This document shows positions 23,081-39,090 of a stretch of 64,000 nucleotides of DNA, piece by piece. Positions within the stretch are counted from its first letter, which is position 1; the number at the start of each line of letters is the position of its first letter. Under the pieces are notes generated by a model. The model worked only from the letters and a program-made list of their open reading frames with translations, was not told the origin of the DNA and did no database searches. Made by a program: the position numbers and the translations under genes. Source of the stretch: an uncultured Candidatus Saccharibacteria bacterium (GTDB lineage Bacteria; Patescibacteriota; Minisyncoccia; Portnoybacterales; UBA2143); contig CAYPQZ010000014.1 of assembly GCA_964413015.1 (NCBI GenBank), positions 459-64,458 of the forward strand. The letters are read 5' to 3'.

Positions 23081-23166
23081 AATTTTGACAAGGGGAAACT
23101 GATAAGAACAGTTTTAAAATGACGCCCTTGTGCTCAAGGGACATCATTTTAAGGACTGTCCTTACC
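23081..23166. repeat. composite palindromic repeat (GATAAGAACAG..ATGACGCCCTTGTGCTCAAGGGACATCAT..TTAAGGACTGTCCTTA)
   Basis: ~66-nt near-perfect palindrome plus the upstream aaattttgacaaggggaaact segment shared with 34371-34400. Generates a spurious N-terminal extension of folD. Confidence 0.8.
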
Positions 23167-23169
23167 ACC

Positions 23170-23940
23170 ATGAAAATTATTGACGGCAAAAAGATAGCCG
23201 ATGAAATTTTAGAAGAGCTTAGAAAGGAAATTGAAATAAAAAAGCTTAAACCATGCTTGGCGGTTATTTTGATTAGCGATAATCCGGCTTCTCGTTTGTA
23301 TATTCAAAAAAAAGAAGCAGCGGCTGAGGAAATTGGAGTTGAGGTAAAAAAGCATTTTTTAGATGAGCAAATCTCCGAAAAAGAAGTTTTGGGAATAATT
23401 GACTCTTTGAATAAAGACAAACAAATTAATGGGATTTTAGTCCAGCTGCCTTTGCCAAAACATCTGGCAGTTGATAAAATTGTTCAAGCCATTAAACCAG
23501 TCAAAGATGTTGATGGATTTGTCAAAGACAGTCTTTGCAATTCTCCTTTTGTTTTGGCTATTAGCCGTGCATTGGCAGAAAGCGGCCAGGATCAGTCAGG
23601 GCGACGAACGGTTATTCTAGCTAATTCCAAGGTTTTAATTCAATCCTTGAAATTGCATTTAAATAGATTAAAATTTATTAAAGATACTAAAAAAGCCGAT
23701 ATTGTCATTAGCGCTTTAGGTCGCCCCCAATATATTAAGGGCTCAACGATTAAACCAGACGCTGTCTTGATTGACGGGGGAATTTCAAAGGCGGATAATA
23801 AAATAGTTGGGGATGTTGACCGGGAAAGCGTTCAAGAAAAAGCCAGCTGGCTAACGCCGGTACCGGGCGGATTAGGTCCGTTGACAGTGGCCTTTTTAAT
23901 GAAAAATTTAGTATGGCTTACCAACCAGTCATCGGTTTAG
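23170..23940 (+). CDS. folD: bifunctional methylenetetrahydrofolate dehydrogenase/cyclohydrolase
   Basis: MKIIDGKKIADEI..., NPASRLYIQKK, GGLGPLTVA. Start reassigned from 23119, where the upstream codons translate the repeat. Confidence 0.88.
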   Translation: MKIIDGKKIADEILEELRKEIEIKKLKPCLAVILISDNPASRLYIQKKEAAAEEIGVEVKKHFLDEQISEKEVLGIIDSLNKDKQINGILVQLPLPKHLAVDKIVQAIKPVKDVDGFVKDSLCNSPFVLAISRALAESGQDQSGRRTVILANSKVLIQSLKLHLNRLKFIKDTKKADIVISALGRPQYIKGSTIKPDAVLIDGGISKADNKIVGDVDRESVQEKASWLTPVPGGLGPLTVAFLMKNLVWLTNQSSV

Positions 23941-25403
23941 AAATACACGCGGAATTAAAGACAGCCAGCAAGATGTTTTGCAGCTGTCTTAACGATCCGG
24001 AAGAGCAGAAACCGAATTTGAATATCTGTCCGGTTTGTTTGGGGTATCCAGGTTCATTGCCGGTAATCAACCAGGAAGCGGTGAAAAAAGTTGTTAAAAC
24101 CGCCTTGTCTTTGAATTGTCAAATTCCGGGAAGAGCTAAATTTGACCGAAAAAACTATTTCTATCCCGACTTGCCCAAAGGTTATCAAATCTCTCAATAT
24201 GACCAGCCTTTGTCCTTAAAAGGTTTTTTGGAAATCGAAGGGAAAAAAATCCAGATTACCCGGATTCATTTAGAAGAAGATACCGGTCGATTGATACATT
24301 TGCAGGAAGCCGGCTATTCACTGATTGATTTTAATCGGGCCGGTCGGCCGCTTATGGAATTAGTCACTGAACCGGATATTGAATCCGGTCGGGAGGCCCG
24401 ACAGTTTTGCGAAGAATTGCAGTTAATCCTGCGCTATTTAGAGGTCTCTGAAGCGAATATGGAAAAAGGCCAGATGCGCTGTGAGGTTAACATTTCACTT
24501 TCTGGCAAGAACGGCAAGTTGGGAACCAAGGTGGAAATTAAAAACCTTAACTCTTTCCGGGCAGTTGAAAAGTCAATTGACTACGAAATTAAAAGACAAG
24601 CCGATTTGTTGGAAGCAGGGCAAAAAGTTATTCAGGAAACCAGAGGCTGGAACGAAGGCAAGCAGATTACTTTCTCCCAGAGGATAAAAGAAGAATCTCA
24701 AGATTACCGTTATTTCCCCGAGCCTGATTTGCCTCCTTTATTGATAGAAGCGTCGTCTGGCGAGTCGAAACACTCGATAGTTAATGTCGCAGAGATTAAA
24801 GCTAAATTGCCGGAACTGCCTCAAGCCCGGCGAACCAGATTTTTTGAAGAGTATCAGATTGCTCCGTCTAATATTAATACGCTGATTGTTAATAAAAAGC
24901 TGGCTGACTATTTTGAGCAGATTGTTTCTGAGTTAAAAACTTGGCTGAAGATAAAATCTATTGATGACAAACAGCCAATGATTAAACTTACCGCTAACTA
25001 TTTATTAACTGAACTTCAAAAATTACTTTTGGCTGATAAAAAAGAAATTACTGAATGTAAAATCAGCCCGGAAAATTTAGCTGAGTTTATTACCTTGATT
25101 CAACAAAAGGAAATTTCAAGTTCAGCGGCTCAAACCGTTCTGAAAGAAATGTTTGAGACCGGAGCCGACCCTTCCAATATTATTGAAGAAAAGAATTTGA
25201 AACAGGTTAATAATGAAGACGTCCTGCTTAAGGTAGTCAAACAGATTATTCAGGAGAATCCCAAGCCAGTTAAGGACTATCGATCAGGCAAGGAAAACGT
25301 TTTACAGTTTTTAGTTGGCAAAGTGATGGCGGCCAGTCATGGCCAGGCCAATCCTGAAATAGTCAGGGAAATTCTAAAAAATAGATTAAAGGTCGAGAAA
25401 TAA
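23913..25403 (+). CDS. gatB: Asp-tRNA(Asn)/Glu-tRNA(Gln) amidotransferase subunit B
   Basis: MAYQPVIGLEIHAELKT...CSC, NLNICPVCLGYPG, and a C-terminal GatB/YqeY domain. Confidence 0.9.
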   Translation: MAYQPVIGLEIHAELKTASKMFCSCLNDPEEQKPNLNICPVCLGYPGSLPVINQEAVKKVVKTALSLNCQIPGRAKFDRKNYFYPDLPKGYQISQYDQPLSLKGFLEIEGKKIQITRIHLEEDTGRLIHLQEAGYSLIDFNRAGRPLMELVTEPDIESGREARQFCEELQLILRYLEVSEANMEKGQMRCEVNISLSGKNGKLGTKVEIKNLNSFRAVEKSIDYEIKRQADLLEAGQKVIQETRGWNEGKQITFSQRIKEESQDYRYFPEPDLPPLLIEASSGESKHSIVNVAEIKAKLPELPQARRTRFFEEYQIAPSNINTLIVNKKLADYFEQIVSELKTWLKIKSIDDKQPMIKLTANYLLTELQKLLLADKKEITECKISPENLAEFITLIQQKEISSSAAQTVLKEMFETGADPSNIIEEKNLKQVNNEDVLLKVVKQIIQENPKPVKDYRSGKENVLQFLVGKVMAASHGQANPEIVREILKNRLKVEK

Positions 25404-25409
25404 TTTTAA

Positions 25410-25607
25410 TTGAGAAATAATATGGTCAATACAGAAAAATACGAAATCAATCCAGAGTATAGGCAGAATCTTTTAAAAGGTAAAAGTTTTAAATTTTCTG
25501 AAAAAGAAACAGCGGAAATGAAAGATAAAGGATTAAGTGAAGAAGATATAGTAAAGAAACAGGAGGATGTTATCGCAAGGCAAGAATTAGATCGCCAGGA
25601 AAAATAA
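25410..25607 (+). CDS. hypothetical small K/E-rich protein
   Basis: 65-aa ORF with no hydrophobic segment. Coding status uncertain. Confidence 0.3.
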   Translation: MRNNMVNTEKYEINPEYRQNLLKGKSFKFSEKETAEMKDKGLSEEDIVKKQEDVIARQELDRQEK

Positions 25608-25624
25608 GACGCAAGATTAGCTGT

Positions 25625-26512
25625 TTAGATAAAGTCAGTAATTATTCTTTTTGCATCAGAGTAAGTTTTAACCCAATTGATCCTTTTGTCTCTTTTAAAC
25701 CAGGTCATTTGGCGGCGGGCGTACTGGCGGGTGTGATTGATAATTAATTCCTCGGCTTTTTTTAAAGAAATTTTACCTTGGAGGCATTGATGAATTTCCT
25801 GATAGCCGATGCTCGACAAGGCCGGCTGATTAAAAGAATATTTTTTGGACAATTTTTTAACTTCTTCAATTAGGCCAGTCCGGAGCATTTTTTTGACTCG
25901 CTGCTCTATTTTTTTATTAAGCGTTCCTTTGTTTAGCTTCAAACCAATCTCTAAAATTTCAAAAAGAGGTTGGCCTTTTTGTTTCTGTTTGGAGAATGGC
26001 TTTTTAGTCAGCAAGCAGACTTCTAAAGCGCGAATTAGCCGCCTTTTGTTGCGAGAATCAATAGCCGAAGCCGCTAAAGAATCTAATTTTTTGAGTCGTT
26101 GAAATAATTCCCGATTAGATAATTTTTCCAGCTTAATCCTTAGTTTTTTATCCGGTTTAACCCGAGGAATTTTTAAGTTATCAACAACTGCCTGGATGTA
26201 CAAGCCAGTTCCGCCGACTAAAAAAGGCAGCCGATTTCTTTTCTGGATATCTTGAATAGTTTTAACAGCCAGCTTTTTGTATTGAGCTAGGGTAAATTCT
26301 TGGTTTGGTTTGACAATGTCAACCAGAGCTATTTTTTTAGTTTTAGCAGTGCCAATGTCCATTTCTTGGTAAATTTGCCGCGAATCAGCATTAACTATTT
26401 CACCCTTAAATTTCTCAGCCAATTTAATAGCTAAGTCAGATTTGCCTGAAGCGGTTGGTCCGAGAATGACAATGAGTTTGTTATGCATAGTTTCGAGAAG
26501 TGTAAGGGACAT
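25625..26512 (-). CDS. miaA: tRNA dimethylallyltransferase
   Basis: P-loop GPTASGKS, DSRQIYQEMDIGTAK. Confidence 0.9.
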   Translation of the reverse strand: MSLTLLETMHNKLIVILGPTASGKSDLAIKLAEKFKGEIVNADSRQIYQEMDIGTAKTKKIALVDIVKPNQEFTLAQYKKLAVKTIQDIQKRNRLPFLVGGTGLYIQAVVDNLKIPRVKPDKKLRIKLEKLSNRELFQRLKKLDSLAASAIDSRNKRRLIRALEVCLLTKKPFSKQKQKGQPLFEILEIGLKLNKGTLNKKIEQRVKKMLRTGLIEEVKKLSKKYSFNQPALSSIGYQEIHQCLQGKISLKKAEELIINHTRQYARRQMTWFKRDKRINWVKTYSDAKRIITDFI

Positions 26513-26541
26513 TCCTTAAATTTTTAAACTGTACTTTAACC

Positions 26542-27585
26542 TTAACTTGCGTTTTTTAAGGCCAGAATAACCTTTTTCCTCCTTTTCTTCTCGTCGGAAG
26601 GAACGTCATCTTTTAACCGGGCGGCGGCTGTGCCTTTTCTTGGAGAATAAGCGGCTACGTAAGCCTGGCTAAAGCCGATTTCCCTGAATAAATCAACCGT
26701 TTTTCGGAACTGCTTTTTAGTCTCGCCCGGAAAGCCAACAATAATATCAGTGGATATTTTCGCCTCGGGTATGGCCCGACGGATTTTTTTTATCAAATTT
26801 TTATAATGCCCGACCGTATAGCCACGATTCATCTTTTTGAGGATTTGGTTATCGCCTGACTGAACCGGCAGATGAATTTCTTTGGAAATTTTATCGCCTT
26901 GGCCGATTGTTTTTATCAGTTCGTTTGACATATCCTTAGGGTGAGAAGTAAGGAATTTTATCTGGAAGTTTCCGGGTAGATTGTTGATTAATTTAAGCAA
27001 TACGGAGAAGCCAAGGACAGTCCTTAAATTTACGTCCTTAGAATAAGGACGTAAATTTAAGGACTGTCCTTGACGGCCTTGATAGCTATTCACATTTTGT
27101 CCTAAAAGAGTTATTTCTCTATATCCTTTTTTAATTAAAGTTTTCGCTTCCTTAATAATTTCATTAGCCGGTCGCGAGTATTCACGGCCGCGGGTATAGG
27201 GGACTACGCAATAGGAACAAAAATTATTGCAACCGGTCATAATGGGAAGCCAGGCATTTTTGGCTGATTGACGTTTGGGCTCCAATTCCAGATTAATAAT
27301 TGGCCAGATTTCATCAACTTGTTCCCGAAGCTGTTTTTTGTCCTTGAATAAAAGACAACCAGTTAAAACCAATTTGCTTTCTGGGTTTTGAAGACGGATT
27401 TTCTTTACTTGGCTGTAAACCCTGTTGACAGCTGACTGTCTGATCGAGCAAACGTTAATAACAACTAAATTAGCCGATTTAATTTGGTCGACTGATTGGT
27501 AGTTTTTTTTCTCTAATTGGGCGGCAATCTTTTCCGAATCTGATTTATTCATTTGACAACCGTAGGTGATAATATGGTATTTCAT
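26542..27585 (-). CDS. miaB: tRNA-2-methylthio-N6-dimethylallyladenosine synthase (radical SAM MTTase)
   Basis: MTTase N-domain (MKYHIITYGCQMN), radical SAM CNNFCSYC, TRAM. Start reassigned from 27669, which translates a repeat. Carries an in-frame 61-nt palindrome at 27012-27072. Confidence 0.88.
   Translation of the reverse strand: MKYHIITYGCQMNKSDSEKIAAQLEKKNYQSVDQIKSANLVVINVCSIRQSAVNRVYSQVKKIRLQNPESKLVLTGCLLFKDKKQLREQVDEIWPIINLELEPKRQSAKNAWLPIMTGCNNFCSYCVVPYTRGREYSRPANEIIKEAKTLIKKGYREITLLGQNVNSYQGRQGQSLNLRPYSKDVNLRTVLGFSVLLKLINNLPGNFQIKFLTSHPKDMSNELIKTIGQGDKISKEIHLPVQSGDNQILKKMNRGYTVGHYKNLIKKIRRAIPEAKISTDIIVGFPGETKKQFRKTVDLFREIGFSQAYVAAYSPRKGTAAARLKDDVPSDEKKRRKKVILALKNAS
27012..27072. 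repeat. perfect 61-nt palindrome (29-nt arms, 3-nt centre) of the GGACNGTCC family inserted in-frame in miaB
   Basis: caaggacagtccttaaatttacgtcctta-gaa-taaggacgtaaatttaaggactgtccttg. Encodes ~20 extra residues (LNLRPYSKDVNLRTVLGFSV) between conserved MiaB blocks. Confidence 0.85.
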
Positions 27586-27615
27586 ATCTGCTTGGGAGAA
27601 GCTAATCTTTAAAAA

Positions 27616-27700
27616 TTTAAGGATTATCATACGATAAGAACAGTCCTTAAAATGATGTCCCTTGAGCACAAGGGCGTCATTTTAAGGACTGTTCTTATCT
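27616..27700. repeat. composite palindromic repeat (reverse orientation of the 23101 copy)
   Basis: aaatttaaggattatcat + gataagaacagtccttaaaatgatgtcccttgagcacaagggcgtcattttaaggactgttcttatc. Confidence 0.8.
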
Positions 27701-27931
27701 GTTTGTCTTATTAGTTACCCTTTGTTAAAATTTAAGAACTGCCTTTTCATTGATTTCATTTTGTATCTTAATTGAAAATGTTGTATAATACAAGCAATAT
27801 GCCCCGTAGAGAAACTTTGACTCTATTCGCCTGTGGCGAATAAGAATGCGGGGATATATAATTATAAGATAAACTAAAAAATATTGAGAATTTTGATATT
27901 TTGATTAAATGTCAAAGTTCTTCTACGGGGT

Positions 27932-28669
27932 ATGAGCAAAATATATTTATCAGTCATTATTCCGGCCTACAACGAGGCCAAAAGTATTGGGAAAACCCTT
28001 TTAAGCATTGATTCCTACTTGGCCCAGCAGGACTATCACTACGAGATTCTGGTTATCAACGACGGGTCAAAAGACAAAACGGTCCAGATTGTTAATAAAT
28101 TTACCAAAATAATTAAAAATTTAAGGTTGGTTAACAATCAGGAAAATCATGGCAAGGGATGGGTTGTCAAGCAGGGGATGCTGGAGGCTGGAGGAAAATA
28201 CCGTCTTTTTATGGACGCTGACAATGCGACCACTATTGACCATTTCGAGAAAATGATACCCTTTTTTAAAAAGGGCTGCCAGGTGGTGATTGGTTCGCGG
28301 GACAGCAAAGATGCTCCAGATGCCAAACAAACCGTTCCCCAACCATTTTTTAAAAGGCAATTGGGCAATTTCGGCAATCTTTTAATTCAATTAATGGCAG
28401 TTCCGGGCATTTGGGATACTCAATGTGGCTTCAAGGCTTTTTCGGGAAAGGCGACCAATGATATCTTCAGCCGGTGTTTGATTGATAAATGGGGATTTGA
28501 CATTGAAGCGCTGGCCCTAGCAAAAAAACTGGGATATCGCATAGGGATAATTCCGGTTAACTGGATAAACAATCCGGATTCTCGAGTTGGCTGGAAAGGA
28601 TATTTAAGAACCTTGAGCGAATTGCTTAAAATTAGATGGAATTTTATTACCGGTAAATATAAATATTAG
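27932..28669 (+). CDS. family 2 glycosyltransferase (Dpm1/polyprenol-phosphate glycosyltransferase-like)
   Basis: LSVIIPAYNEAKSI..., DGSKD..., DXD region. Confidence 0.82.
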   Translation: MSKIYLSVIIPAYNEAKSIGKTLLSIDSYLAQQDYHYEILVINDGSKDKTVQIVNKFTKIIKNLRLVNNQENHGKGWVVKQGMLEAGGKYRLFMDADNATTIDHFEKMIPFFKKGCQVVIGSRDSKDAPDAKQTVPQPFFKRQLGNFGNLLIQLMAVPGIWDTQCGFKAFSGKATNDIFSRCLIDKWGFDIEALALAKKLGYRIGIIPVNWINNPDSRVGWKGYLRTLSELLKIRWNFITGKYKY

Positions 28670-31082: not shown

Positions 31083-31085
31083 ATT

Positions 31086-31130
31086 TTTAAGGACTGTCCT
31101 TATCGTTGGCGCGTCTCAAGGGGTATTAAA
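31086..31130. repeat. partial GGACNGTCC-family repeat
   Basis: ttaaggactgtccttatc...gcgtctcaaggggtat. Confidence 0.6.
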
Positions 31131-31273
31131 TATACGACTTTGCGTTTGGCCTTTGGCTCGAAGAGAAATTTTTTTGAATGTTTAGCCCTATTCGTGCTTC
31201 GCGCGAACAGCTCGCCCACACCTACGATTCAAAAAAATTGTCTTCTTCGCAAGGCCTTGTATCCGATAGGATT

Positions 31274-32446
31274 ATGAAATCACTTCGGGATTTTAATTTT
31301 AATAATAAGCGGGTTTTAATAAGGGTTGGCTTTAATGTTCCCTTCTTTTTGGGAGAAAGCAGCAGAATTGATGATGAAGAGGATTGGCGGATACAAGCCA
31401 CTTTGCCGACTATTAAATATTTAGTTGAGCATAAAGCTAAACTTATTCTGTTAACCCATTTGGGCAGGCCCGAAGGGAAGATTGACGAAAAACTGCGGTT
31501 GGATATGATAAGCGAAAGATTGACGGAACTTTTGAAATTGCCGGTCGTTAAATTAAATGATTGCCTTGGCCCTGAAGTTGAAATGCAGATAAGAAAAATG
31601 GCTCCTGGAGATATAGTTTTGTTAGAAAATATTCGTTTTCATCCGGGAGAAGAAGCAAATAGCCTGGATTTTTCCAAAAAAATCGCTGCTTTGGGAGACA
31701 TTTATGTTAACGACGCTTTTTCAGTGAGTCACAGAAATCATGCTTCGGTGGTTGGTCTGCCTAAATATTTACCGAGTTGTTTTGGTCTGCTTTTTGAAAA
31801 AGAGGTTCAAACGCTTTCCAAGGTTTTGGACCAGCCGGAACATCCTTTGACAGCAATTATCGGCGGAGGGAAAATATCAACTAAAATCAAGTTCGTTAAG
31901 AATTTTTTGAATAGATCCGACAACTTGCTTTTAGCTGGAGCTTTGGCTAACACGGTGATTAACGCTAAAGGGTTTGCCATTGGCCAGTCAGTTTCGGAAA
32001 AAAGCATGATTGGAGAAGTTAAAAAACTTAATTTGACCAGCACTAAGCTTCATATACCGGTTGATGTAGTTGTTTCTAAAGATGTTTCCGGAAAGGCATC
32101 CAGCCGAATTTCTCCAGTAGGCAATACAGCTGAAGACGAAATGATTCTTGATATTGGGCCGGATACGATTCAAATATTTTCCCAAGTAATTTCTCAGTCC
32201 AAAATGATTATCTGGAATGGACCTTTAGGATTTCTTGAGACGGAGAAATTCAGCTTAGGAAGTGAAGCAATTGCTAATAAAATAGCTGAGAGTTATAATT
32301 TTTCATTGGTTGGCGGAGGCGATACAGTAGCCTTTTTAGAAAAGTTAAAATTAATAGATAAAATAACACATATTTCTACCGGCGGGGGTGCTATGCTTAA
32401 ATTTCTAGCTGGTGAAAAACTGCCCGGGATAGAAGCCTTGAAATAG
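31274..32446 (+). CDS. pgk: phosphoglycerate kinase
   Basis: RVLIRVGFNVP, hinge and nucleotide-binding motifs (GGGDTVA). Start moved from 31178 to MKSLRDF. Confidence 0.85.
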   Translation: MKSLRDFNFNNKRVLIRVGFNVPFFLGESSRIDDEEDWRIQATLPTIKYLVEHKAKLILLTHLGRPEGKIDEKLRLDMISERLTELLKLPVVKLNDCLGPEVEMQIRKMAPGDIVLLENIRFHPGEEANSLDFSKKIAALGDIYVNDAFSVSHRNHASVVGLPKYLPSCFGLLFEKEVQTLSKVLDQPEHPLTAIIGGGKISTKIKFVKNFLNRSDNLLLAGALANTVINAKGFAIGQSVSEKSMIGEVKKLNLTSTKLHIPVDVVVSKDVSGKASSRISPVGNTAEDEMILDIGPDTIQIFSQVISQSKMIIWNGPLGFLETEKFSLGSEAIANKIAESYNFSLVGGGDTVAFLEKLKLIDKITHISTGGGAMLKFLAGEKLPGIEALK

Positions 32447-32454
32447 TCTTTGAG

Positions 32455-32482
32455 ACAGTCCCCAGAATGCTGGGGACTGTCC
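32455..32482. repeat. GGGGACTGTCCCC variant palindrome
   Basis: gacagtcccc-agaatgct-ggggactgtc (10-nt arms). Confidence 0.65.
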
Positions 32483-32501
32483 CCAAGGCTCAAAAAATAT
32501 T

Positions 32502-34271
32502 ATGAAATGGCAAGTTAAAAATAAAGCGCCTAGCGCTTTTTTAAAACAATTTCCGGAGTTTTCTCCTTTAATCTCTCAGCTTTTATACAATCGCGATTTG
32601 AAAACTCAACAACAGATTGATGAGTTTTTTAATCCTGATTATCAGGGTGATTTACACGATCCTTTTTTACTTAAAGGGATGGAAAAAGCAGTTAAGCGAA
32701 TTTATCAAGCGGTGTCTAAAAAGGAAAGAATTTTAGTTTACGCTGATTATGACGCAGATGGAGTTTGTTCAGGGGCAATTTTGTTTTCAGTTTTGAAACA
32801 TCTGGGCGCGAAAAATATTCAGGCCTATATCCCTGACCGGGCCAAAGAAGGGCATGGAATGAACAAAGAAGCGATTAAGAAAATTCATAAAGAAAAAGCT
32901 GATTTGATAATTACCGTTGACTGCGGCATCAGTAATTTAGAAGAGGCCGAGCTAATTGCTTCTTTAGGCATGGACCTTATCATTACTGACCATCATCAGC
33001 CAAAGCATAAACTGCCTGAAGCAGTTGCCTTGATTGACCCTTGGCAGAAGGATGATAAATATCCTTTTAAGGATTTGTGCGGAGCCGGCGTGGCCTATAA
33101 ATTAACCTGCGCCCTCTTGCGCGAAAAAAAAGACAACCCAGATTATCCTTTAAAGAAATGGCTTTTGGATTTAGTCGCTTTAGCTACAGTGGCTGATGTT
33201 ATGCCGATTATTGGAGAGAATCGAACCTTGGTAAAGTACGGCTTAGGCGTTTTAGCTCAGACAAAACGTCTGGGGCTTCAAGAATTAATGAAAACGGCTA
33301 AAGTAATTCCTGAATTAATTAAACATTCCTTGAATGGGGAAGCCCCTCTGACAAACCTGAATACCTATACCATCGGCTTTATCCTGGCTCCGCGCCTTAA
33401 CGCGGTCGGTCGAATGAACCACGCTAGTGCCGCTTTTCATCTCTTAATAAGCCAGAATAAAAAAGAAGCCGAAAAATTAGCTAAAGATATTAATCAAAGC
33501 AATTCAACCAGGCAGAATTTGACAGAACGGATAATTGAGGAAGCTAAGAAGCGGATTGATAAAAAGCTTAGTCGTAAGGATTCTAAACTCATTTTTGAAG
33601 GCAGCCCTGATTGGCCGGCTGGATTAGTTGGCTTGATAGCCAGTAAGATATCTGATCAGTATCAGCGGCCAACCATTATTTACCATGACCTGGACTCTAT
33701 TATTTCCGGTTCTTGCCGAAGCCGAGGAAGTTTTAATGTTTTAGGGATGCTTAAACATTCATCTGATTGTCTTCATTCTTTCGGCGGGCATGAAAAAGCG
33801 GCCGGCTTTAGGATTAAAAGAGCAAATTTAAAAAAGTTTAAAAATGCTTTGATAAAATTTGTTGAAGACAAGTTAAGGGGCGAGGATTTAATACCGGTTT
33901 TAGACGTTGATGCGGAATTGTCTCTGGAAGACATAAACTGGCGGAATTATGACCAAATTCAGCAGTTTGCTCCTTTTGGTAAAGACAATCCGGAACCAAG
34001 ATTTTTGGTTAAAAATGCGGAAATTAATGATTTAAGATTAGTCGGTAATAGCAACAAGCATCTTAAGATGGACTTAATGATTTTCAACGAGCAATCAAAA
34101 CAGGGGAAAAGGATTAAGGCGATTGCTTTTAATCTGGGCGAATGGCATAATACATTGAATAGAGGCGATTCAGTTAACGCGGTTTTTGAATTAATTGCTA
34201 ATGAATGGAACGGGAACCGGGATTTAGAAATGAAAATTATAGATTTAAAGACCGTAAAAAAATATGTATGA
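32502..34271 (+). CDS. recJ: single-stranded-DNA-specific exonuclease RecJ
   Basis: DHH motifs (DYDADGVCSGAIL, ITDHH), DHHA1 and a C-terminal OB-like domain. Confidence 0.85.
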   Translation: MKWQVKNKAPSAFLKQFPEFSPLISQLLYNRDLKTQQQIDEFFNPDYQGDLHDPFLLKGMEKAVKRIYQAVSKKERILVYADYDADGVCSGAILFSVLKHLGAKNIQAYIPDRAKEGHGMNKEAIKKIHKEKADLIITVDCGISNLEEAELIASLGMDLIITDHHQPKHKLPEAVALIDPWQKDDKYPFKDLCGAGVAYKLTCALLREKKDNPDYPLKKWLLDLVALATVADVMPIIGENRTLVKYGLGVLAQTKRLGLQELMKTAKVIPELIKHSLNGEAPLTNLNTYTIGFILAPRLNAVGRMNHASAAFHLLISQNKKEAEKLAKDINQSNSTRQNLTERIIEEAKKRIDKKLSRKDSKLIFEGSPDWPAGLVGLIASKISDQYQRPTIIYHDLDSIISGSCRSRGSFNVLGMLKHSSDCLHSFGGHEKAAGFRIKRANLKKFKNALIKFVEDKLRGEDLIPVLDVDAELSLEDINWRNYDQIQQFAPFGKDNPEPRFLVKNAEINDLRLVGNSNKHLKMDLMIFNEQSKQGKRIKAIAFNLGEWHNTLNRGDSVNAVFELIANEWNGNRDLEMKIIDLKTVKKYV

Positions 34272-34506
34272 AAATTTAAGGATTGTCATTGAGGATCATG
34301 TCCCTTTACAGAAGGCAAAGGGCGTGTCCGCCTATCCGCCTCTGAAGGGAAAGGACGACTCCTTAAATTTTGACAAGGGGAAACAGATAAGACAAACTGA
34401 TAAGAACAGTCTTTAAAATGACGCCCTTGTGCTCAAGGGGCATCGTTTTAAGGACTGTCCTTATCATCAGCGTATCCCAAGGGACATCATTTTAAGGACT
34501 GCCTTT
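34262..34506. repeat. ~245-nt cluster of nested palindromic repeats (GGACNGTCC family, two composite copies)
   Basis: aaatttaaggattgtcatt; ccctttacagaaggcaaaggg; gataagaacagtctttaaaatgacgcccttgtgctcaaggggcatcgttttaaggactgtccttatc (34399-34465); plus a further partial copy. Confidence 0.8.
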
Positions 34507-34955
34507 TGAAAAGTATGAAGTTAACTATTTATACCGATGGCGGAGCGCGGGGCAATCCCGGTCCGGCCGCTATCGGTGCGGTCATCATACAAGATGGCCA
34601 AACAATTAAGAAATACGGCGAGTTTATTGACGAAGCCACTAACAATCAAGCCGAGTACCAGGCAATAATTTTCGCTTTGAAAAAAATTAAACTGCTTTTT
34701 GGCAAAAAGCCGGCTAAGAGAATGGAAATTGAGCTTTATTCAGACAGTGAATTAATTGTTAATCAGCTTAATCATCAGTACAAGATAAAAGAGGAAGACC
34801 TTCAGTTACTGTTTCTCAAGGCCTGGAATTTGACGTTAGATTTTAAACAAGTTATTTTCAAGCATATTGTTCGGACTAAAAACAAGGAAGCTGACCGTTT
34901 GGTCAACCAAGCCCTGGATAATCAGGAAAAGACTTCTGTTTTGCCGGGTCTTTAA
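34506..34955 (+). CDS. rnhA: ribonuclease HI
   Basis: DGGARGNPGPAAIGAV...NNQAEYQAIIFAL...YSDSELIVNQ DEDD catalytic residues. Confidence 0.85.
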   Translation: MKSMKLTIYTDGGARGNPGPAAIGAVIIQDGQTIKKYGEFIDEATNNQAEYQAIIFALKKIKLLFGKKPAKRMEIELYSDSELIVNQLNHQYKIKEEDLQLLFLKAWNLTLDFKQVIFKHIVRTKNKEADRLVNQALDNQEKTSVLPGL

Positions 34956-35005: not shown

Positions 35006-35357
35006 CCAAGCAAGTGGATAGTCGGTCGCCTTAGGCGACAGGAAAGTCCGGGCACCATATAATGGCAGTGGGTAACGCCCACCGTCCGCAAGGATAGGGA
35101 AAGTGCCACAGAGACAATGTTTCTTCATTTTAGGGGGAATCTCCTAAAAAGGGGTAAAAGTGAAAAGTGAGGGCCTAAGAATCCTCTCATCCGGCAGAAA
35201 TGTCGCGATGCGGTAAACCCTGCCTGGTGCAAGAGCAAAGTGTAGCTCGCTTGAGCCTGAGAGTAATCTCCGGCCTAGATAGATGACTATCCAAAACCCG
35301 CCTTTGCCCTACGGGCTTCGGCGAGGTGAGACAGAACCCGGCTTATAGCTTGCTTGG
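35006..35357 (+). ncRNA. rnpB: RNase P RNA (bacterial type A)
   Basis: P1 pairing ccaagcaag...cttgcttgg. Conserved GGAAAGTCCGGGC (P4 5' strand), ACAGAGA, AAAAGTGAAA and ACAGAACCCGGCTTA (P4 3' strand). Followed by a T-run. Confidence 0.85.
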
Positions 35358-35404
35358 GTTTTTTTATTCTTGATTTTTAGGTAAAAATCATTAAAATCAA
35401 AGTA

Positions 35405-36835
35405 ATGAAGCGTTCAGACCTTATTTTCACTGCTATTTTAGTCCCGGTGGATTTTTTGATGCTGGTTGCCGCCGGTCTGACCGCCTATTTTTTAAGAATT
35501 AGCCCTTGGCTAGCCCAATACCGGCCAGTTCTTTTTCATTTAAACCTTCCTTTTGGCAGGTATTTTGTTTTGGTCAGCGGGATTTCCATTTTTTTATTGA
35601 TTGTTTTTTCGCTAATCGGACTTTACCGGATTAAGTCAACCCGTAAGCTTCTGGACGATTTTCCCAGAATCGCGATTGGCGTCTCAGCCGGGGTCATGAT
35701 TGTTGTCCTCTATATCTTTCTAAGACAGGAACTATTCAATTCCCGTTTTTTAGTTTTAGCCGGCTGGTTGATAGCCATTGTTTTTGTTTGTCTAGGCCGT
35801 TGGTTAGTTGTCCTGTGGGGAAAATATTTGATCAGAAGCCGTCAGTTTGGAATTCGCCGGGTCATGCTTATTGGCCGGGATGAGTTAAGCCAAAAGATTA
35901 TCCAGAATATTAAACAAGAGGCCAGTGCAAGGTGCCGGGTAGTTGAGAATATTATCGAGCCGGATTTAAAAAAGATAAGTCAGAAGATAAGTAGCGGGAA
36001 AATAGATGAAGTTATTCTGTCGGATCCGGATTGGTCCAAGGATAAGGTTTTGGAATTAGTTAATCTGGTTGAGGCCAGTCATTTGAATTTCAAATTTATC
36101 CCCAATCTTTTTCAGGCTTTGACTGTTAATACTTCAGTTGAAATAATCGGCAATGTGCCGGTTGTTGAATTGAAAAGAACTGCTCTGGACGGTTGGGGTA
36201 GAATCATTAAGAGATTATTTGATATAATCTTCTCGCTTTCTTTTGTTATTATCTTTTCGCCGGCCTATCTTTTAATAGCTTTGATGATAAAAATTGATTC
36301 TCCGGGCCCGGTGATTTATAAGGATTATCGTTACGGATACAAAAAGAAAAAGTTTGAGTTTTACAAATTCCGTTCTATGAGAGCTGACCTTTGCGACGGG
36401 GAATTCGGAACTAAAAAAGGGAATCAAATGCTTAAAGATTTGGAAAAAGACCATGCCAGGAATCTCCGTAAAGACAGTCCGCTTCATAAGATTAAGAATG
36501 ATCCCAGGATTACCAAGCTAGGCCGGTTCTTGCGTAAGAATTCTTTAGATGAATTGCCTCAATTCTTTAATGTTTTGAAAGGAGACATGAGCATTGTCGG
36601 TTATCGTCCCCATATGTCTTACGAGGTAAAAAAGTACAATTTTGACCAGCAAAGGATGTTCTATATCAAGCCCGGGATTACCGGCTTGGCCCAAATTTCC
36701 GGAAGGAGCGACCTTGATTTTGATGAAGAGGTTAAGCTGGACGTCTTTTATATGGAAAATTGGTCTTTGAGATTGGATTTAATTATCATTTTAAAAACTC
36801 CGTTTGTTATCTTATTAAAAAAGCACGAAGCTTAG
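35405..36835 (+). CDS. polyprenyl-phosphate hexose-1-phosphate transferase (WbaP/CpsE-like bacterial sugar transferase)
   Basis: N-terminal TM bundle plus C-terminal Bac_transf domain (KRLFDIIFSL..., PGPVIY, KFRSM, SIVGYRP). Confidence 0.85.
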   Translation: MKRSDLIFTAILVPVDFLMLVAAGLTAYFLRISPWLAQYRPVLFHLNLPFGRYFVLVSGISIFLLIVFSLIGLYRIKSTRKLLDDFPRIAIGVSAGVMIVVLYIFLRQELFNSRFLVLAGWLIAIVFVCLGRWLVVLWGKYLIRSRQFGIRRVMLIGRDELSQKIIQNIKQEASARCRVVENIIEPDLKKISQKISSGKIDEVILSDPDWSKDKVLELVNLVEASHLNFKFIPNLFQALTVNTSVEIIGNVPVVELKRTALDGWGRIIKRLFDIIFSLSFVIIFSPAYLLIALMIKIDSPGPVIYKDYRYGYKKKKFEFYKFRSMRADLCDGEFGTKKGNQMLKDLEKDHARNLRKDSPLHKIKNDPRITKLGRFLRKNSLDELPQFFNVLKGDMSIVGYRPHMSYEVKKYNFDQQRMFYIKPGITGLAQISGRSDLDFDEEVKLDVFYMENWSLRLDLIIILKTPFVILLKKHEA

Positions 36836-36860
36836 CTGGTCCGAAGGAAGCGATATTTTT

Positions 36861-37946
36861 ATGAAAGTTGCTTTAGTTCATGATTATCTTAATCAATACG
36901 GAGGGGCGGAAAGAGTATTAGAGGCATTTTGTCAGATTTTTCCCAAAGCGCCGATTTATACTTTGCTTTATGATGAAGCCAGAACCGGTTCGGCCTTTAA
37001 AAAATATCAAATTAAGACGTCTTTTTTGCAAAAAGTCCCTTTGGTTAAATCTCACCATCGCCCTTTTTTAATGCTGATGCCTTTGGCAATAGAACAATTT
37101 GATTTGTCCGAGTATGATTTAGTGCTTTCTGATTCAGCCAGCTATGCCAAAGGGGTAATTACTTCGCCGAAAACTCTGCATATTTGTTATTGCCATACGC
37201 CGATTCGCTATGCCTGGGATGATTCCCATAAATACATAGAGGAATTCGGTTATCCCGGCCCAATAAAGAAAGTAGTTCCTTTTTTCATGAACTATATCCG
37301 TCTCTGGGATGAGCAGGCGGCCCAACGAGTTGATAAATTTATTGCCAATTCACGTTTTGTGGCCCAGCGGATAAAAAAGTATTATCATCAGCCGGCAAGG
37401 GTTATCCATCCGCCGGTCAGAACCGACCTCTTTTACATGGCTGATAAAATAGACGAATATTTTCTGCTCGTCGGGCGCTTCCTGCCTTACAAACGCTTCG
37501 ATTTAGCTATAGAGGCATTTAACGAGCTGGGTCTCCCTTTAAAAATTATTGGCGACGGGCCTGACCGTAAAAAATTGGAGCGGAATTCTAGAAGAAATAT
37601 AGAGTTTGTGGGGTTGGTTTCTGACAGCAAATTAAAAGAATATTATGCTCACTGCCAGGCCTTTATTTTTCCTCAAGAAGAGGATTTCGGGATTACCGCG
37701 GTTGAGGCAATGGCCTCAGGCCGGCCAGTTATTGCTTATCAGTCTGGTGGCGCCTTAGAAACAGTTGAACCAGGAATTACCGGATTGTTTTTTAAAGAGC
37801 AAACTAAAGAAAGCTTAATTGAAGTTTTAAGAAAGTTCAAATCCAGCGACTTCAATTCTAAAATTATCAGACAAAAAGCTGAAAATTTCGACCAGGAAAA
37901 ATTTAAAAAAAGGATAATAAATTTTATTAATGAATATTGGCATTGA
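36861..37946 (+). CDS. GT4 family glycosyltransferase
   Basis: E-x7-E motif region EDFGITAVEAMASGRPVIAY. Confidence 0.82.
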   Translation: MKVALVHDYLNQYGGAERVLEAFCQIFPKAPIYTLLYDEARTGSAFKKYQIKTSFLQKVPLVKSHHRPFLMLMPLAIEQFDLSEYDLVLSDSASYAKGVITSPKTLHICYCHTPIRYAWDDSHKYIEEFGYPGPIKKVVPFFMNYIRLWDEQAAQRVDKFIANSRFVAQRIKKYYHQPARVIHPPVRTDLFYMADKIDEYFLLVGRFLPYKRFDLAIEAFNELGLPLKIIGDGPDRKKLERNSRRNIEFVGLVSDSKLKEYYAHCQAFIFPQEEDFGITAVEAMASGRPVIAYQSGGALETVEPGITGLFFKEQTKESLIEVLRKFKSSDFNSKIIRQKAENFDQEKFKKRIINFINEYWH

Positions 37947-39045
37947 TATAAGAGTTTTGGCTCGAGGCGCCAGAACCGGTGTTGAAGAATACACTCTTAA
38001 TCTGCTTGATTCTCTTTTGTCTCTGGAGCCAGAAATCAATTTCAAGCTTTTTTATAACGCTTATCATAAAGCTTGTTTATCTTATCCTTGCCTTGGTTTG
38101 GATAATGTTCAGTTAAAAGATTTTAGAATTCCTAACCGCCTTTTTTTTATTAGCGCCCGCTATTTTAACCAGCCCAAAATAGACAAATTATTAGGCCAAA
38201 TTAATGTTTACTTCAATCCACATTTTTTCCCCGCTCCTTTGTCAAGCAACTGCCGGAAAATAGTTACTTTCCATGACTTGTCTTTTTTAAGGCATCCTGA
38301 GTTCTTCTCTTGGCGTAAAAAAGTTTGGCAAAGTTTTTTGGTAGCGGCTCAAAAAGAAGCTGTTCAAGCCGATAAAATTATTGCTGTTTCTCAATCGACT
38401 AAACAGGACTTAGTTAATCTTTATGGAATTAAACCGGGTAAAATAAAGGTAATTTATTCGGGGATAGGCGAGAAGTTTAACCCTTTAGGGGCTATTCCCA
38501 AGCTGGCTAAGAAATACAATCTTCCGGAGAAATTTATCCTCTATTTTGGGACTATTGAACCGAGGAAAAATCTTGTAGGGTTGATTAAGGCTTTTGAACT
38601 TCTGAAGACAAAGCATAAACTGGTCTTTGCCGGGACTAAGGGCTGGCTTTATCAGGATATTTTTAAGGCCGCTAGAAAGTCGAGGCGCCACCGGGACATT
38701 ATTTTCACTGGTTTTGTTGAAGACCAAGACAAACCCGGGCTTTACAATCTGGCTGATCTTTTCATTTATCCCAGTTTTTTTGAGGGTTTCGGCTTCCCCC
38801 CCTTGGAAGCAATGGCCTGTGGAGTGCCGACTATTGTTTCGCACGCTTCTTCTTTGCCGGAGGTAGTCGGGACAGGCGCTTTAATGGTTGACCCTTACAA
38901 TATTGATGAGTTGGCCTGGGCTATGGAAACGATTCTGGCTGATAAAGATTTAAGGGAAGGACTAATTAAAAAAGGATTTGCCCAAGCCAAAAAATTCTCC
39001 TGGCCCAAATGCGCCCGGGACACGCTAAAACTGATAAAAGGCTGA
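37930..39045 (+). CDS. GT4 family glycosyltransferase
   Basis: EGFGFPPLEAMACGVPTIVS. Confidence 0.82.
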   Translation: MNIGIDIRVLARGARTGVEEYTLNLLDSLLSLEPEINFKLFYNAYHKACLSYPCLGLDNVQLKDFRIPNRLFFISARYFNQPKIDKLLGQINVYFNPHFFPAPLSSNCRKIVTFHDLSFLRHPEFFSWRKKVWQSFLVAAQKEAVQADKIIAVSQSTKQDLVNLYGIKPGKIKVIYSGIGEKFNPLGAIPKLAKKYNLPEKFILYFGTIEPRKNLVGLIKAFELLKTKHKLVFAGTKGWLYQDIFKAARKSRRHRDIIFTGFVEDQDKPGLYNLADLFIYPSFFEGFGFPPLEAMACGVPTIVSHASSLPEVVGTGALMVDPYNIDELAWAMETILADKDLREGLIKKGFAQAKKFSWPKCARDTLKLIKG

Positions 39046-39046
39046 A

Positions 39047-39090
39047 GAATTGTCCTTAAAGAAATTTAAGGATTGTCATTTTAAGGACTG
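39047..39090. repeat. GGACNGTCC-family palindromic repeat
   Basis: gaattgtccttaaagaaatttaaggattgtcattttaaggactgtccttta. Confidence 0.7.

What the first reader, a model, noticed from the sequence alone, without database searches (positions are those of the whole stretch)
23081..39090. Dense family of GGAC-N-GTCC palindromic repeats scattered through the intergenic spacers
Short palindromes with core (T)TAAGGACTGTCCTTA(A), or the variant GGGGACTGTCCCC, recur at 3698-3734, 23081-23166, 27012-27072, 27616-27700, 31086-31130, 32455-32482, 34262-34506 (a 245-nt nest with two composite copies), 39047-39090 and 53211-53223. The longest form is a ~66-nt near-perfect palindrome, GATAAGAACAGTYYTTAAAATGAYGYCCCTTGWGCACAAGGGCGTCATTTTAAGGACTGTYCTTATC, present three times (23101, 27633, 34399). 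This resembles REP/MITE-like or Rickettsia RPE-like selfish palindromes, which I do not recall being characterised in CPR genomes. Alternatively the copies are operators for a single dimeric regulator. They also corrupt ORF calling, giving false N-terminal extensions on folD, miaB, trmD and the 39050 glycosyltransferase.
Basis: seen in the sequence. Interest (0 to 1): 0.72.

Follow-up and report, generated by a model that had tools for sequence, protein, structure and literature searches.

The report
Hairpin repeat family in CPR bacteria
This small-genome (CPR/Patescibacteria) bacterium carries a family of 36-110-base hairpin-forming repeats built around the box AAGGAC(A/T)GTCCTT, which come and go between related genomes, sit between genes and also in frame inside housekeeping genes, and so behave like the selfish palindromic elements of Rickettsia, apparently undescribed in this group.

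Summary
GGACNGTCC occurs 8 times against 0.17 expected.

One copy (27012-27072) is not intergenic. It is a perfect 61-nt palindrome sitting in frame (21 codons) in a surface loop of miaB.

Syntenic relatives lack most or all copies: their genes abut or overlap where this genome has the repeat. Related MiaB proteins show the same loop empty, filled with this element, or filled with a sister subfamily.

The AAGGACWGTCCTT box, nearly always as an inverted doublet, recurs in many CPR lineages. These include Parcubacteria groups, Berkelbacteria, Kuenenbacteria and Microgenomates. It often sits in frame in RecJ, TsaD, MetK, RecG, GDH and Alr, and it is read in different frames.

Arm complementarity is kept through compensatory changes. 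I found no Rfam family, no phage copies, no target duplication and no transposase.

Best reading: a non-autonomous, hairpin-forming selfish repeat superfamily. It works like RPE and has REPIN-like doublet architecture, but it is a member of neither family. The mobilising enzyme is unknown. The operator hypothesis is not supported.

It is a new member of a known kind, of moderate interest.

The parts
3695..3735 (.). Degenerate doublet (AAAAACAGTCTTAATTAGAAAATTTAAGAATTGTCCTTTT) between the convergent ends of map and thrS.
   Evidence: family D1, 69% to the reference. It folds weakly, z = -1.4, so it looks like a decayed copy.
23070..23166 (+). Long copy 1. It has a 5' extension (decayed arm plus TTGACAAGGGGAAAC) and a 66-nt hairpin at 23101-23166. 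It fills the glyA-folD spacer and ends 4 nt before the folD ATG (23171).
   Evidence: Folds at -27.5 (+ strand) and -37.8 (- strand) kcal/mol. In relatives glyA and folD overlap or nearly abut (L127, L129, L132), or have a spacer with no copy (L134).
26497..26524 (.). Possible degenerate single arm (TAAGGGACATTCCTTAAATTTT) at the miaA start and miaB end.
   Evidence: 3 mismatches; D9; E = 1.7. Weak.
27012..27072 (-). Perfect 61-nt palindrome (29-nt arms, 3-nt loop) inserted in frame in miaB. It is translated as RQGQSLNLRPYSKDVNLRTVLG.
   Evidence: (I1, 100% complementary), and (the loop is empty in many homologues). AlphaFold pLDDT is below 50 only at residues 173-187, the core of the translated element (about residues 170-190). 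The element is 88-93% identical to the copies in L127 and L133, against 68-70% for the rest of the gene.
27613..27760 (-). Long copy 2 in reverse orientation. It has a hairpin at 27633-27699, the 5' extension on the - strand up to about 27760, and a solo degenerate arm at 27613-27632. It lies in the divergent miaB / glycosyltransferase spacer.
   Evidence: (I3). Folds at -49 kcal/mol, z = -13.7. The spacer is 2-42 nt in relatives.
31085..31139 (+). Solo right arm TTTTAAGGACTGTCCTTATC plus a partial inner segment, in the tpiA-pgk spacer.
   Evidence: D7, 75% to 34446-34500; E = 2e-5.
32445..32490 (.). Variant hairpin with GGGGAC(A/T)GTC(C/T)C arms (GAGACAGTCCCCAG-AATG-CTGGGGACTGTCCCC) in the pgk-recJ spacer.
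   Evidence: I16. Folds at -30.8 kcal/mol, z = -6.4. The same GGGACWGTCCC arm type forms a whole subfamily in relative L132.
34262..34508 (+). Nest in the recJ-rnhA spacer. It holds a degenerate hairpin (34272-34340), a decayed arm plus extension (34340-34398), long copy 3 (hairpin 34399-34466) and a further half unit (34478-34508).
   Evidence: Folds at -39.8 kcal/mol. In relatives this spacer is an overlap, 13 nt, or 95 nt holding one related hairpin.
39043..39097 (+). Three arms in tandem (TGAAGAATTGTCCTTAA / TTTAAGGATTGTCAT / TTTTAAGGACTGTCCTTTA) between two glycosyltransferase genes.
   Evidence: E = 1e-5. The spurious TTG start at 39050 reads through it.
53209..53225 (.). Solo variant palindrome TTGGGGACTGTCCCCAA upstream of trmD.
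   Evidence: The trmD Pfam match begins at residue 33 of the ORF called from 53209.

Best explanation
These are copies of a non-autonomous, hairpin-forming interspersed repeat, that is, selfish DNA. It belongs to a superfamily spread through CPR/Patescibacteria.

Anatomy:
- The constant part is a 13-nt box, AAGGAC(A/T)GTCCTT. It is usually preceded by GGGRCRTC(N)TTT.
- It occurs as an inverted doublet, so the whole element folds into one long hairpin.
- The tip and the outermost arms differ between subfamilies.

Proposed mechanism:
- New copies are made from existing ones and inserted at new sites without a visible target duplication.
- Most likely a trans-encoded enzyme does this, recognising the folded box on single-stranded DNA. 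Y1/HUH transposases do this for REP sequences and IS200/IS605 ends.
- Selection then leaves only harmless insertions. These are copies in spacers and stop-free copies, a multiple of three in length, in surface loops or inter-domain linkers of proteins, where they are translated.
- Copies later decay, truncate and nest.
- Intergenic copies may incidentally act as bidirectional terminator-like hairpins.

Shown here: the repeat family, the hairpin, compensatory maintenance of the arms, insertion polymorphism, in-frame translated copies, and the wide CPR distribution.

Inferred: active transposition, the single-strand hairpin recognition step, and the kind of enzyme involved.
For: 1. Non-random multi-copy family.

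2. Very stable hairpins. In an alignment of 16 elements, 96.5% of cells are paired and 11 of 27 pairs change on both sides; 0 of 500 shuffles reach this. The 27633 copy has arms AAGAACAGTCCTT and AAGGACTGTTCTT. They are complementary to each other although neither is itself a perfect palindrome.

3. Presence/absence at orthologous sites in syntenic relatives:
- L129-131 have none in 21 kb.
- L127/128 have it only in the miaB loop and the recJ-rnhA spacer.
- L133 has it in the miaB loop plus one single arm.
- L132 has a sister subfamily at three other places, including in frame in miaA.

4. The MiaB loop between GQNVNSY and FPxLLK:
- It is 0-3 residues long in many homologues and carries the element in others.
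- Carriers are interleaved with empty-loop sequences on a neighbour-joining tree.
- In the AlphaFold model only the core of the insert is disordered.

5. The element is 88-93% identical between genomes whose miaB is otherwise 68-70% identical.

6. Distribution beyond this window:
- 36 of 103 genome stretches with the 16-mer carry CPR names.
- 30 of those 36 have a second arm within 75 nt, against 3 of 67 others.
- Several genomes have hits on 2-5 contigs.

7. In-frame copies occur in RecJ, a ComM-like protein, TsaD (twice), MetK, GDH, Alr, RecG and a PaaX-like protein. They are read in different frames (GQSL, RTVL, KDCP), so the conserved unit is the nucleotide sequence, not a peptide.

8. The same 47-nt core occurs with different outer arms in 19 CPR-like (AT-rich, repeat-flanked) of 21 matching metagenome stretches, seven of them within 700 nt of a contig end, as expected of repeats that break assemblies.

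9. There is no target-site duplication at the three near-identical long copies. This fits Y1-type or RPE-like insertion.
Against: - No transposase, RAYT or other candidate enzyme is present in the window or next to the copies I inspected. The search was not systematic, and only 64 kb of the genome was visible.
- No empty/filled pair from near-identical strains was available. Insertion is therefore inferred from relatives with 68-80% nucleotide identity in miaB (about 70% amino-acid identity), not observed as an event.
- There is no conserved flanking tetranucleotide such as the GTAG of REPs.
- The 13-nt box is identical across distant CPR lineages, and the element is more conserved than its host gene. 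These could instead mean a host function under purifying selection.
- Palindromes can keep their arms complementary through intrastrand template switching, so the covariation does not prove selection for a folded substrate.
Confidence: 0.7

Rival explanations
1. Host-functional hairpins. The elements are, or have become, cis-acting RNA or DNA structures, such as bidirectional intrinsic terminators, attenuators or mRNA-stabilising/processing hairpins. The host selects for them and they spread for that reason. This does not exclude a selfish origin.
For: - The inner module AAAATGA-[GC stem]-TCATTTT scores as terminator-like on both strands at all three long copies.
- That module is exactly conserved across 19 CPR-like stretches in about ten metagenome data sets.
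- The element is more conserved than its flanking gene.
- Most window copies lie between genes.
Against: - Relatives have overlapping or abutting genes at the same junctions, so no terminator is needed there.
- One copy lies between rpsL and rpsG (L148), and many lie inside ORFs of essential genes, where termination would be harmful.
- Copies are often truncated, nested or degenerate.
- Orientation relative to the host gene is mixed.
- There is no Rfam match.
Confidence: 0.15
2. Operators. The palindromic box is the binding site of one dimeric transcription factor or nucleoid protein, and the copies define its regulon or binding landscape.
For: - The box is a 13-17-bp perfect palindrome, typical of dimer sites.
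- It is conserved across CPR lineages.
- Several window copies lie just upstream of start codons.
Against: - Copies lie in frame inside genes and between convergent gene ends.
- They are absent at the same promoters in syntenic relatives.
- The adjacent genes are functionally unrelated (folD, miaB, pgk, recJ, rnhA, a glycosyltransferase, trmD).
- Complementarity is kept between arms 30-50 nt apart, including in the variable parts. A dimer site does not require that.
- The flanks carry subfamily-specific stems.
Confidence: 0.04
3. DNA uptake signal. CPR bacteria are naturally competent. The box would be a preferred uptake sequence that accumulates by biased uptake and recombination, with inverted pairs as in Neisseria DUS terminators.
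For: - The short motif is exactly conserved across lineages while its surroundings diverge.
- Inverted pairs are present, in both genes and spacers.
- Pilin-like genes are in the window.
- Competence of Patescibacteria is established knowledge, not tested here.
Against: - The copies are insertions of 36-63 nt relative to homologues, not motifs created by substitution.
- Density is far below the roughly 1 per kb typical of DUS/USS (known from Neisseria and Haemophilus). Unselected syntenic stretches of relatives held none in 21 kb (L129), none in 13 kb (L134) and two elements in 17 kb (L127). The stretches found with the motif mostly held a single doublet in about 8 kb.
- The conserved unit extends well beyond a 10-13-nt signal (47-nt core).
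Confidence: 0.04
4. In-situ palindrome growth without mobility. Each locus generated its own inverted repeat through replication template switching at a short pre-existing palindrome, so the copies are convergent and not related by copying.
For: - Palindromes can extend and self-correct by intrastrand template switching (general knowledge).
- The miaB target already contains CAAG, which matches the end of the element.
Against: - The three long copies share about 100 nt, including an asymmetric non-palindromic 5' extension and an asymmetric bulge.
- An identical 35-47-nt asymmetric core is present in many unrelated loci and genomes. That requires copying from a template elsewhere.
Confidence: 0.03
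5. Assembly or sequencing artefact, such as adapter or chimeric fold-back reads.
For: - Some contigs start or end inside the palindromes (L125 and L126 start inside the 27633-27699 hairpin).
- Several metagenome contigs end at a copy.
Against: - The same elements occur in independent assemblies from many projects and assemblers, and essentially only in CPR genomes.
- In-ORF copies are always stop-free and a multiple of three in length.
- Orthologous copies differ by compensatory substitutions.
Confidence: 0.01

Closest known systems
Rickettsia palindromic elements (RPE; Ogata et al. 2000, recalled from my own knowledge)
   Same: - Short palindromic repeats in a reduced genome.
- Found in spacers and also in frame inside conserved housekeeping genes, where they are translated as extra surface loops.
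- Patchy presence among orthologues.
- No known transposase and no clear target duplication.
   Different: - RPEs are about 100-150 bp. These are 36-66 nt (about 100 nt for the extended form).
- Sequence relatedness to RPEs was not tested.
- This family has a short invariant palindromic box shared across a whole superphylum, with modular, subfamily-specific arms.
- The host group is unrelated (CPR, not Alphaproteobacteria).
REP sequences / REPINs mobilised by RAYT (Y1) transposases (PMC3116915, PMC3337134)
   Same: - The basic unit is a short palindrome arranged as an inverted doublet that folds into a hairpin.
- Within-genome subfamilies occur.
- Pairing is kept by compensatory change.
- No target duplication.
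- A plausible single-strand hairpin recognition step.
   Different: - REPs are extragenic by definition. Here many copies are inside ORFs.
- No conserved GTAG-like tetranucleotide.
- No RAYT gene seen.
- Copy numbers appear lower.
Bacterial MITEs such as Correia/NEMIS, RUP and Nezha
   Same: Small non-coding repeats with inverted ends, insertion polymorphism between strains, and occasional effects on neighbouring gene expression.
   Different: - No target-site duplication.
- No parent IS with matching ends was found.
- The whole element, not just the termini, is one hairpin.
- Much shorter than most MITEs.
Coding palindromes / hairpin elements of organelle genomes (for example Nematomorpha mitochondria, PMC6649704; known to me from its abstract only)
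   Same: Perfect inverted repeats embedded in protein-coding genes and translated in frame.
   Different: Those are long (up to 284 bp), organellar, and not a dispersed family with a shared box.

Membership tests
RPE (Rickettsia palindromic elements) | Palindromic repeat present in multiple dispersed copies in one genome. | tested here: met
RPE (Rickettsia palindromic elements) | Copies inserted in frame in conserved protein genes, absent from orthologues, and located at surface loops. | tested here: met
   miaB. Other hosts.
RPE (Rickettsia palindromic elements) | Sequence homology to RPE-1..8 consensus, length about 100-150 bp, Rickettsiales host. | tested here: not met
   - Length is 36-66 nt.
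- The host is CPR (names).
- No RPE consensus was available to align, so homology itself was not tested.
REP / REPIN-RAYT | Short imperfect palindromes arranged as inverted doublets forming a hairpin. | tested here: met
REP / REPIN-RAYT | Strictly extragenic location. | tested here: not met
   In-ORF copies in the window and in at least 10 host genes elsewhere.
REP / REPIN-RAYT | Conserved 5' GTAG-type tetranucleotide next to the hairpin. | tested here: not met
   The flanks of aligned copies share no such motif.
REP / REPIN-RAYT | A RAYT (Y1 transposase) gene in the genome, typically flanked by REPs. | tested here: inconclusive
   - None among the window ORFs (gene calls).
- None among the ORFs next to copies in the loci inspected.
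- Only 64 kb of a genome whose public contig spans at least 317 kb was visible.
MITE (DDE-transposase dependent) | Terminal inverted repeats. | tested here: met
   The arms are inverted repeats. However, the whole element is palindromic, which is not specific to MITEs.
MITE (DDE-transposase dependent) | Direct target-site duplication flanking each copy. | tested here: not met
   No duplication at the borders of the three near-identical long copies or at the miaB insertion.
MITE (DDE-transposase dependent) | A full-length IS with the same termini. | tested here: inconclusive
   Not found in the window or fetched loci. Whole genomes were not searchable.
Integron attC sites | R''/R' core sites RYYYAAC ... 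GTTRRRY flanking an imperfect palindrome at the 3' end of cassettes, next to an intI gene. | tested here: not met
   - The ends read GATAAGAAC...GTTCTTATC, and GTTCTTA does not fit GTTRRRY.
- The flanking genes are syntenic housekeeping genes, not cassettes.
Rfam structured RNA families | Match to a curated covariance model at gathering score. | tested here: not met
   None at gathering threshold. Only chance-level miRNA/sRNA hairpin hits, with E >= 0.05 and far below the cut-offs.
DNA uptake sequences (DUS/USS) | Very high density (about 1 per kb), arising by substitution within aligned sequence. | tested here: not met
   Copies are insertions. Density is low in relatives.

The most novel reading that the evidence does not exclude
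The invariant AAGGAC(A/T)GTCCTT box, shared by Parcubacteria groups, Berkelbacteria, Kuenenbacteria and Microgenomates, may mark an ancient, vertically persisting partnership between the hairpin repeats and one conserved CPR protein. That protein could be a domesticated single-copy Y1/HUH-type or novel hairpin-specific enzyme, analogous to REPIN-RAYT. Alternatively it could be a competence or chromosome-organising protein that reads the box. In that case the repeats would be a superphylum-wide genome feature that also remodels housekeeping proteins by adding loops, and not a passing parasite.
Probability: 0.2. Interest if true: 0.75.

Novelty: new member of a known kind. Interest (0 to 1): 0.55.

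Why it matters
- CPR/Patescibacteria have some of the smallest and most streamlined bacterial genomes, yet this one tolerates a proliferating repeat that lengthens spacers, splits overlapping (probably translationally coupled) genes and adds peptides to essential enzymes. This repeats the Rickettsia RPE story in an unrelated reduced lineage. It suggests that in-frame palindrome insertion is a general route of protein-loop evolution in small genomes.
- The elements cause systematic annotation errors. Examples are false N-terminal extensions, spurious 'MTPLCSRDII...' ORFs and inflated protein lengths. They also break assemblies, which matters for the thousands of CPR MAGs in public databases.
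- The short invariant box gives a simple handle for a census. It also allows phylogenetic profiling to find the unknown mobilising or binding protein. For RPE-type elements that protein has never been identified, to my knowledge.

Tried and rejected
- Rfam at gathering and at permissive thresholds: nothing but chance hairpin hits.
- Sigma-70 promoter reading of the TTGACA in the 5' extension: no acceptable -10 at 16-18 nt, and the scan does not list it.
- Phage origin: viral contigs hold only single 16-mers inside a few homologous phage genes, and there were 0 hits to the doublet pattern.
- Transposase flanked by copies: pairs of copies 0.3-3 kb apart in L044, L055, L041, L113 and L091 enclose ordinary genes or non-coding DNA. 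ORFs near metagenome copies are unrelated.
- Target-site duplication: none found.
- attC, dif or Xer-type sites: the sequence does not fit. The two tyrosine recombinases in the window lie in a separate low-GC island.
- TIGR arrays came up in the literature search. I rejected them because these are dispersed doublets, not arrays next to a Tas gene.
- Strand-specific G·U evidence for an RNA function: mismatches are transitions that favour one strand in some copies and the other strand in others, so this is uninformative.
- Literature: seven searches found no description of such repeats in CPR.

Full report
**1. Checking the observation**

The core GGACNGTCC occurs 8 times in the window, against 0.17 expected from dinucleotide-preserving shuffles. 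The 17-nt palindrome TTAAGGACNGTCCTTAA with up to three mismatches occurs 13 times, against 0.35 expected.

The three ~66-nt palindromes at 23101, 27633 and 34399 are real. They are parts of a longer oriented unit of about 100 nt with a shared asymmetric 5' extension (TTAAATTTTGACAAGGGGAAAC..GATAAGA). The 27633 copy lies in the opposite orientation.

As single strands the long copies fold at -27 to -52 kcal/mol, z = -7 to -13.7.

A profile of the 28-nt unit finds the strong copies at 23141, 27011/27049, 27640/27675, 31081, 34445, 34484 and 39075. Weak ones are at 26507, 32474, 34269, 39061 and 53213; repeat family D1 adds a degenerate copy at 3700. The family is therefore concentrated in 23-39 kb.

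**2. Anatomy**

The constant piece is the 13-nt palindromic box AAGGAC(A/T)GTCCTT. On one side it is usually preceded by GGGRCRTC(N)TTT. Two boxes in inverted orientation make an element, so the central A/T tells the arms apart.

- In the long class (59-61 nt) the space between the boxes is itself a hairpin, AAAATGA-stem-loop-stem-TCATTTT.
- In the short class (36-43 nt, seen in other genomes) the spacer is only about 10-17 nt, often GGGGCATCTTT.
- A variant has GGGAC(A/T)GTCCC arms. It is seen in the window at 32445-32490 and 53209-53225, and as a whole subfamily in relative L132.

In an alignment of 16 long elements from 10 loci, 96.5% of cells pair and 11 of 27 pairs change on both sides. 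No shuffle out of 500 reaches this, and sliding the partner by one column drops pairing to about 50%.

In the 27633 copy each arm is an imperfect palindrome, yet the two arms are perfectly complementary to each other. What is preserved is therefore the long hairpin, not just a dimer site.

**3. One copy is inside a gene**

The copy at 27012-27072 has 29-nt arms, 100% complementary. It lies in the miaB-like ORF on the minus strand, in frame, and encodes RQGQSLNLRPYSKDVNLRTVLG.

Among 120 homologues, the nearest of which are named Candidatus Portnoybacteria, the loop between GQNVNSY and FPxLLK varies as follows:
- 0-3 residues long in many;
- carrying this element in P0010, P0011, P0013 and P0018;
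- carrying the GGGAC-armed sister element in P0003-5, P0014, P0016, P0040 and P0041;
- carrying unrelated inserts in others.

On a neighbour-joining tree built without the loop, carriers are interleaved with empty-loop sequences in at least four places. This points to repeated gain or loss.

An AlphaFold model has mean pLDDT 88, with values below 50 only at residues 173-187, the core of the translated element (about residues 170-190). The radical-SAM fold around it is intact.

At the DNA level the element is 88-93% identical between the window, L127 and L133. The rest of miaB is 68-70% identical between the window and those relatives (79.5% between L127 and L133). The differences in the inner stem are compensatory: ACGTCC/GGACGT against ACATCC/GGATGT.

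**4. Orthologous spacers**

Exact-protein look-ups gave syntenic loci from five related genomes with the same gene order (rnhA-recJ-pgk-tpiA-...-miaB-miaA-gatB-folD-glyA-...-gyrB).

| Relative | Loci | Copies found |
|---|---|---|
| B | L129-131 | None in 21 kb. glyA/folD overlap, recJ/pgk are 3 nt apart, rnhA/recJ are 13 nt apart. |
| A | L127/128 | Only the miaB insert and one related hairpin in the recJ-rnhA spacer. |
| - | L133 | The miaB insert plus a single arm. |
| - | L134 | None. |
| C | L132 | The sister subfamily at three different places, one of them in frame in miaA. |

In the window, the same junctions are 56-245 nt long and consist essentially of the repeat.

**5. Distribution**

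- 36 stretches carry CPR names. These include Parcubacteria, Zambryski-, Nomura-, Vogel- and Paceibacteria, Kuenenbacteria, Berkelbacteria, Microgenomates, and MAGs labelled Saccharibacteria. CPR are only a small share of the bases scanned.
- 30 of those 36 have a second arm within 75 nt, against 3 of 67 others (Fisher p about 1e-16). Two of those three are automated MAG bins that may be mislabelled.
- Several genomes gave hits on 2-5 contigs, for example JABMPX01, JBBTTN01, MHWB01, CAIRFN01 and MFTF01.
- Many doublets lie in long ORFs, always stop-free. Pfam confirms the hosts: RecJ, a ComM/Mg-chelatase-like protein, TsaD (two copies), MetK, glutamate dehydrogenase, alanine racemase, RecG and a PaaX-like protein. 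The inserts lie between domains or in loops.
- Within one element the two boxes are read in different frames (GQSL, then RTVL or KDCP). The conservation is therefore at the nucleotide level.
- The inner 22-mer of the window's long copies occurs in 21 metagenome stretches from about ten data sets. Nineteen of them are CPR-like (AT-rich, repeat-flanked), and these share a 47-nt core but have different outer arms (CCAGAGGCGTC.../...AAGCCTCTT). Seven lie within 700 nt of a contig end. This is a modular superfamily.
- Viral contigs hold only isolated 16-mers inside a few phage genes and no doublets.

**6. What it is and how it probably works**

The combination of features is the signature of a non-autonomous selfish repeat:
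- a multi-copy family with subfamilies;
- decayed, truncated and nested copies;
- insertion polymorphism among syntenic relatives;
- repeated occupation of a permissive protein loop;
- stop-free in-frame copies in many unrelated housekeeping genes;
- a hairpin maintained by compensatory change.

I found no target duplication, no parent IS and no transposase in the window or beside the copies I inspected.

My preferred mechanism is copying and insertion by a trans-encoded enzyme that reads the folded box on single-stranded DNA, as Y1/HUH enzymes do. It rests on three things: the preserved hairpin, the lack of a duplication, and analogy with REP/IS200-IS605. It is an inference. I put roughly one chance in three on that specific enzyme class, within a 0.7 confidence that the elements are selfish mobile repeats.

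Intergenic copies carry an A-tract/GC-stem/T-tract module that scores as a bidirectional terminator. A secondary, incidental effect on transcription is therefore plausible but unproven.

**7. Rivals**

- *Operators of one regulator.* This does not fit the copies inside ORFs, the absence of copies at the same promoters in relatives, the unrelated neighbouring genes, or the long-range arm complementarity.
- *A selected RNA or terminator function.* This is hard to reconcile with copies inside essential genes, between rpsL and rpsG (L148), and at junctions where relatives have overlapping genes. The high conservation of the element relative to its host gene keeps it alive at about 0.15.
- *DNA uptake sequences.* These would arise by substitution and at far higher density.
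- *In-situ palindrome growth.* This cannot explain identical asymmetric cores at unrelated loci.
- *Artefact.* This is excluded by independent assemblies, the restriction to CPR, and compensatory differences between orthologous copies.

**8. Comparison with known families**

Functionally the closest is the Rickettsia palindromic element: in-frame, translated, loop-forming, patchy, and without a known transposase. Architecturally the closest is the REPIN, an inverted doublet of a short palindrome.

It is a member of neither, nor of the other families I considered:
- It is several-fold shorter than RPEs and lives in an unrelated host.
- It is not extragenic, has no GTAG-type motif, and no RAYT was seen.
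- It lacks the target duplication of DDE-type MITEs.
- Rfam has no such family.
- Seven literature searches found no description of palindromic repeats in CPR genomes.

**9. Verdict**

It is a new member of a known kind of element. Interest is moderate (0.55).

Two points could raise that. One is the identity of the protein that reads the invariant box. The other is whether the partnership is ancient and vertically inherited across the superphylum.

Noticed in passing
window 15082-15118 and 54048-54084: A second, unrelated palindromic repeat (CCTGCCCGCAATGCTACGCATAGTGTTGCAGGCGGGC; the two copies are 89% identical). One copy is in frame in the linker of pheS, translated as PARNATHSVAGGR, between the N-terminal and core domains. 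The other lies 10 nt upstream of the 16S rRNA gene. This genome therefore hosts more than one in-frame hairpin family.
   Followed up: partly
MiaB homologues P0002-P0120 (alignment): The same MiaB loop carries several other recurrent insert types in related CPR genomes. Examples are SELRIKNQES, SEQRTVNSEQYKK and SLRGGRLWRPTKQSH...RDCFGLRPHN. They look like translations of other repeat families. I did not examine their DNA.
   Followed up: no
window 27799-27933 and 13072-13213 (weaker: 53886-53972): There are 23-nt inverted repeats 89-96 nt apart (ATGCCCCGTAGAGAAACTTTGAC ... GTCAAAGTTCTTCTACGGGGTAT). The 3' arm overlaps the start codon of the downstream gene (the glycosyltransferase at 27932; the ORF at 13200). 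This may be a leader structure that occludes the start site, or another repeat family.
   Followed up: partly
window 55787-64000: A low-GC (30% against about 40%) island lies downstream of the 16S gene. It holds a group II intron domain hit (55787-55879), a LAGLIDADG endonuclease ORF, two tyrosine recombinases (56696-57730 and 58311-59288), an HTH protein, a Zn-ribbon protein and RadC. By my coordinate mapping the public JGI contig (316,975 bp) ends at window position about 56,569, inside this island. The window must therefore come from a longer or different assembly.
   Followed up: partly
window 51343-51454 and 52150-52261: A 112-nt AT-rich direct repeat (97% identical), itself internally palindromic. 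The two copies bracket the ORF 51462-52148.
   Followed up: no
L139 9293-9541, L146 2903-3145, L153 119-361; window 23119-23170: The inner hairpin begins with ATGACGCCC. My mechanical ORF listing therefore picks up spurious 80-82-residue ORFs starting MTPLCSRDII... at these copies in other metagenome contigs. In the public gene calls for this organism, the same ATG adds 17 residues to folD (273 aa).
   Followed up: partly
L125 and L126 (Logan assemblies SRR2986055, SRR2989655): Independent short-read assemblies of the same organism break exactly inside the 27633-27699 palindrome: the contig starts at the spurious GTG of miaB. The repeats fragment assemblies.
   Followed up: no
L134/L135 12512-13326: The gyrB of one syntenic relative is 1075 aa and carries an intein (PF14890), unlike the 641-aa gyrB of the window.
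   Followed up: no
L055 4359-4712: Two identical short doublets 320 nt apart bracket a non-coding stretch in a Patescibacteria MAG. It could be a small RNA gene or a composite element. I did not examine it.
   Followed up: no
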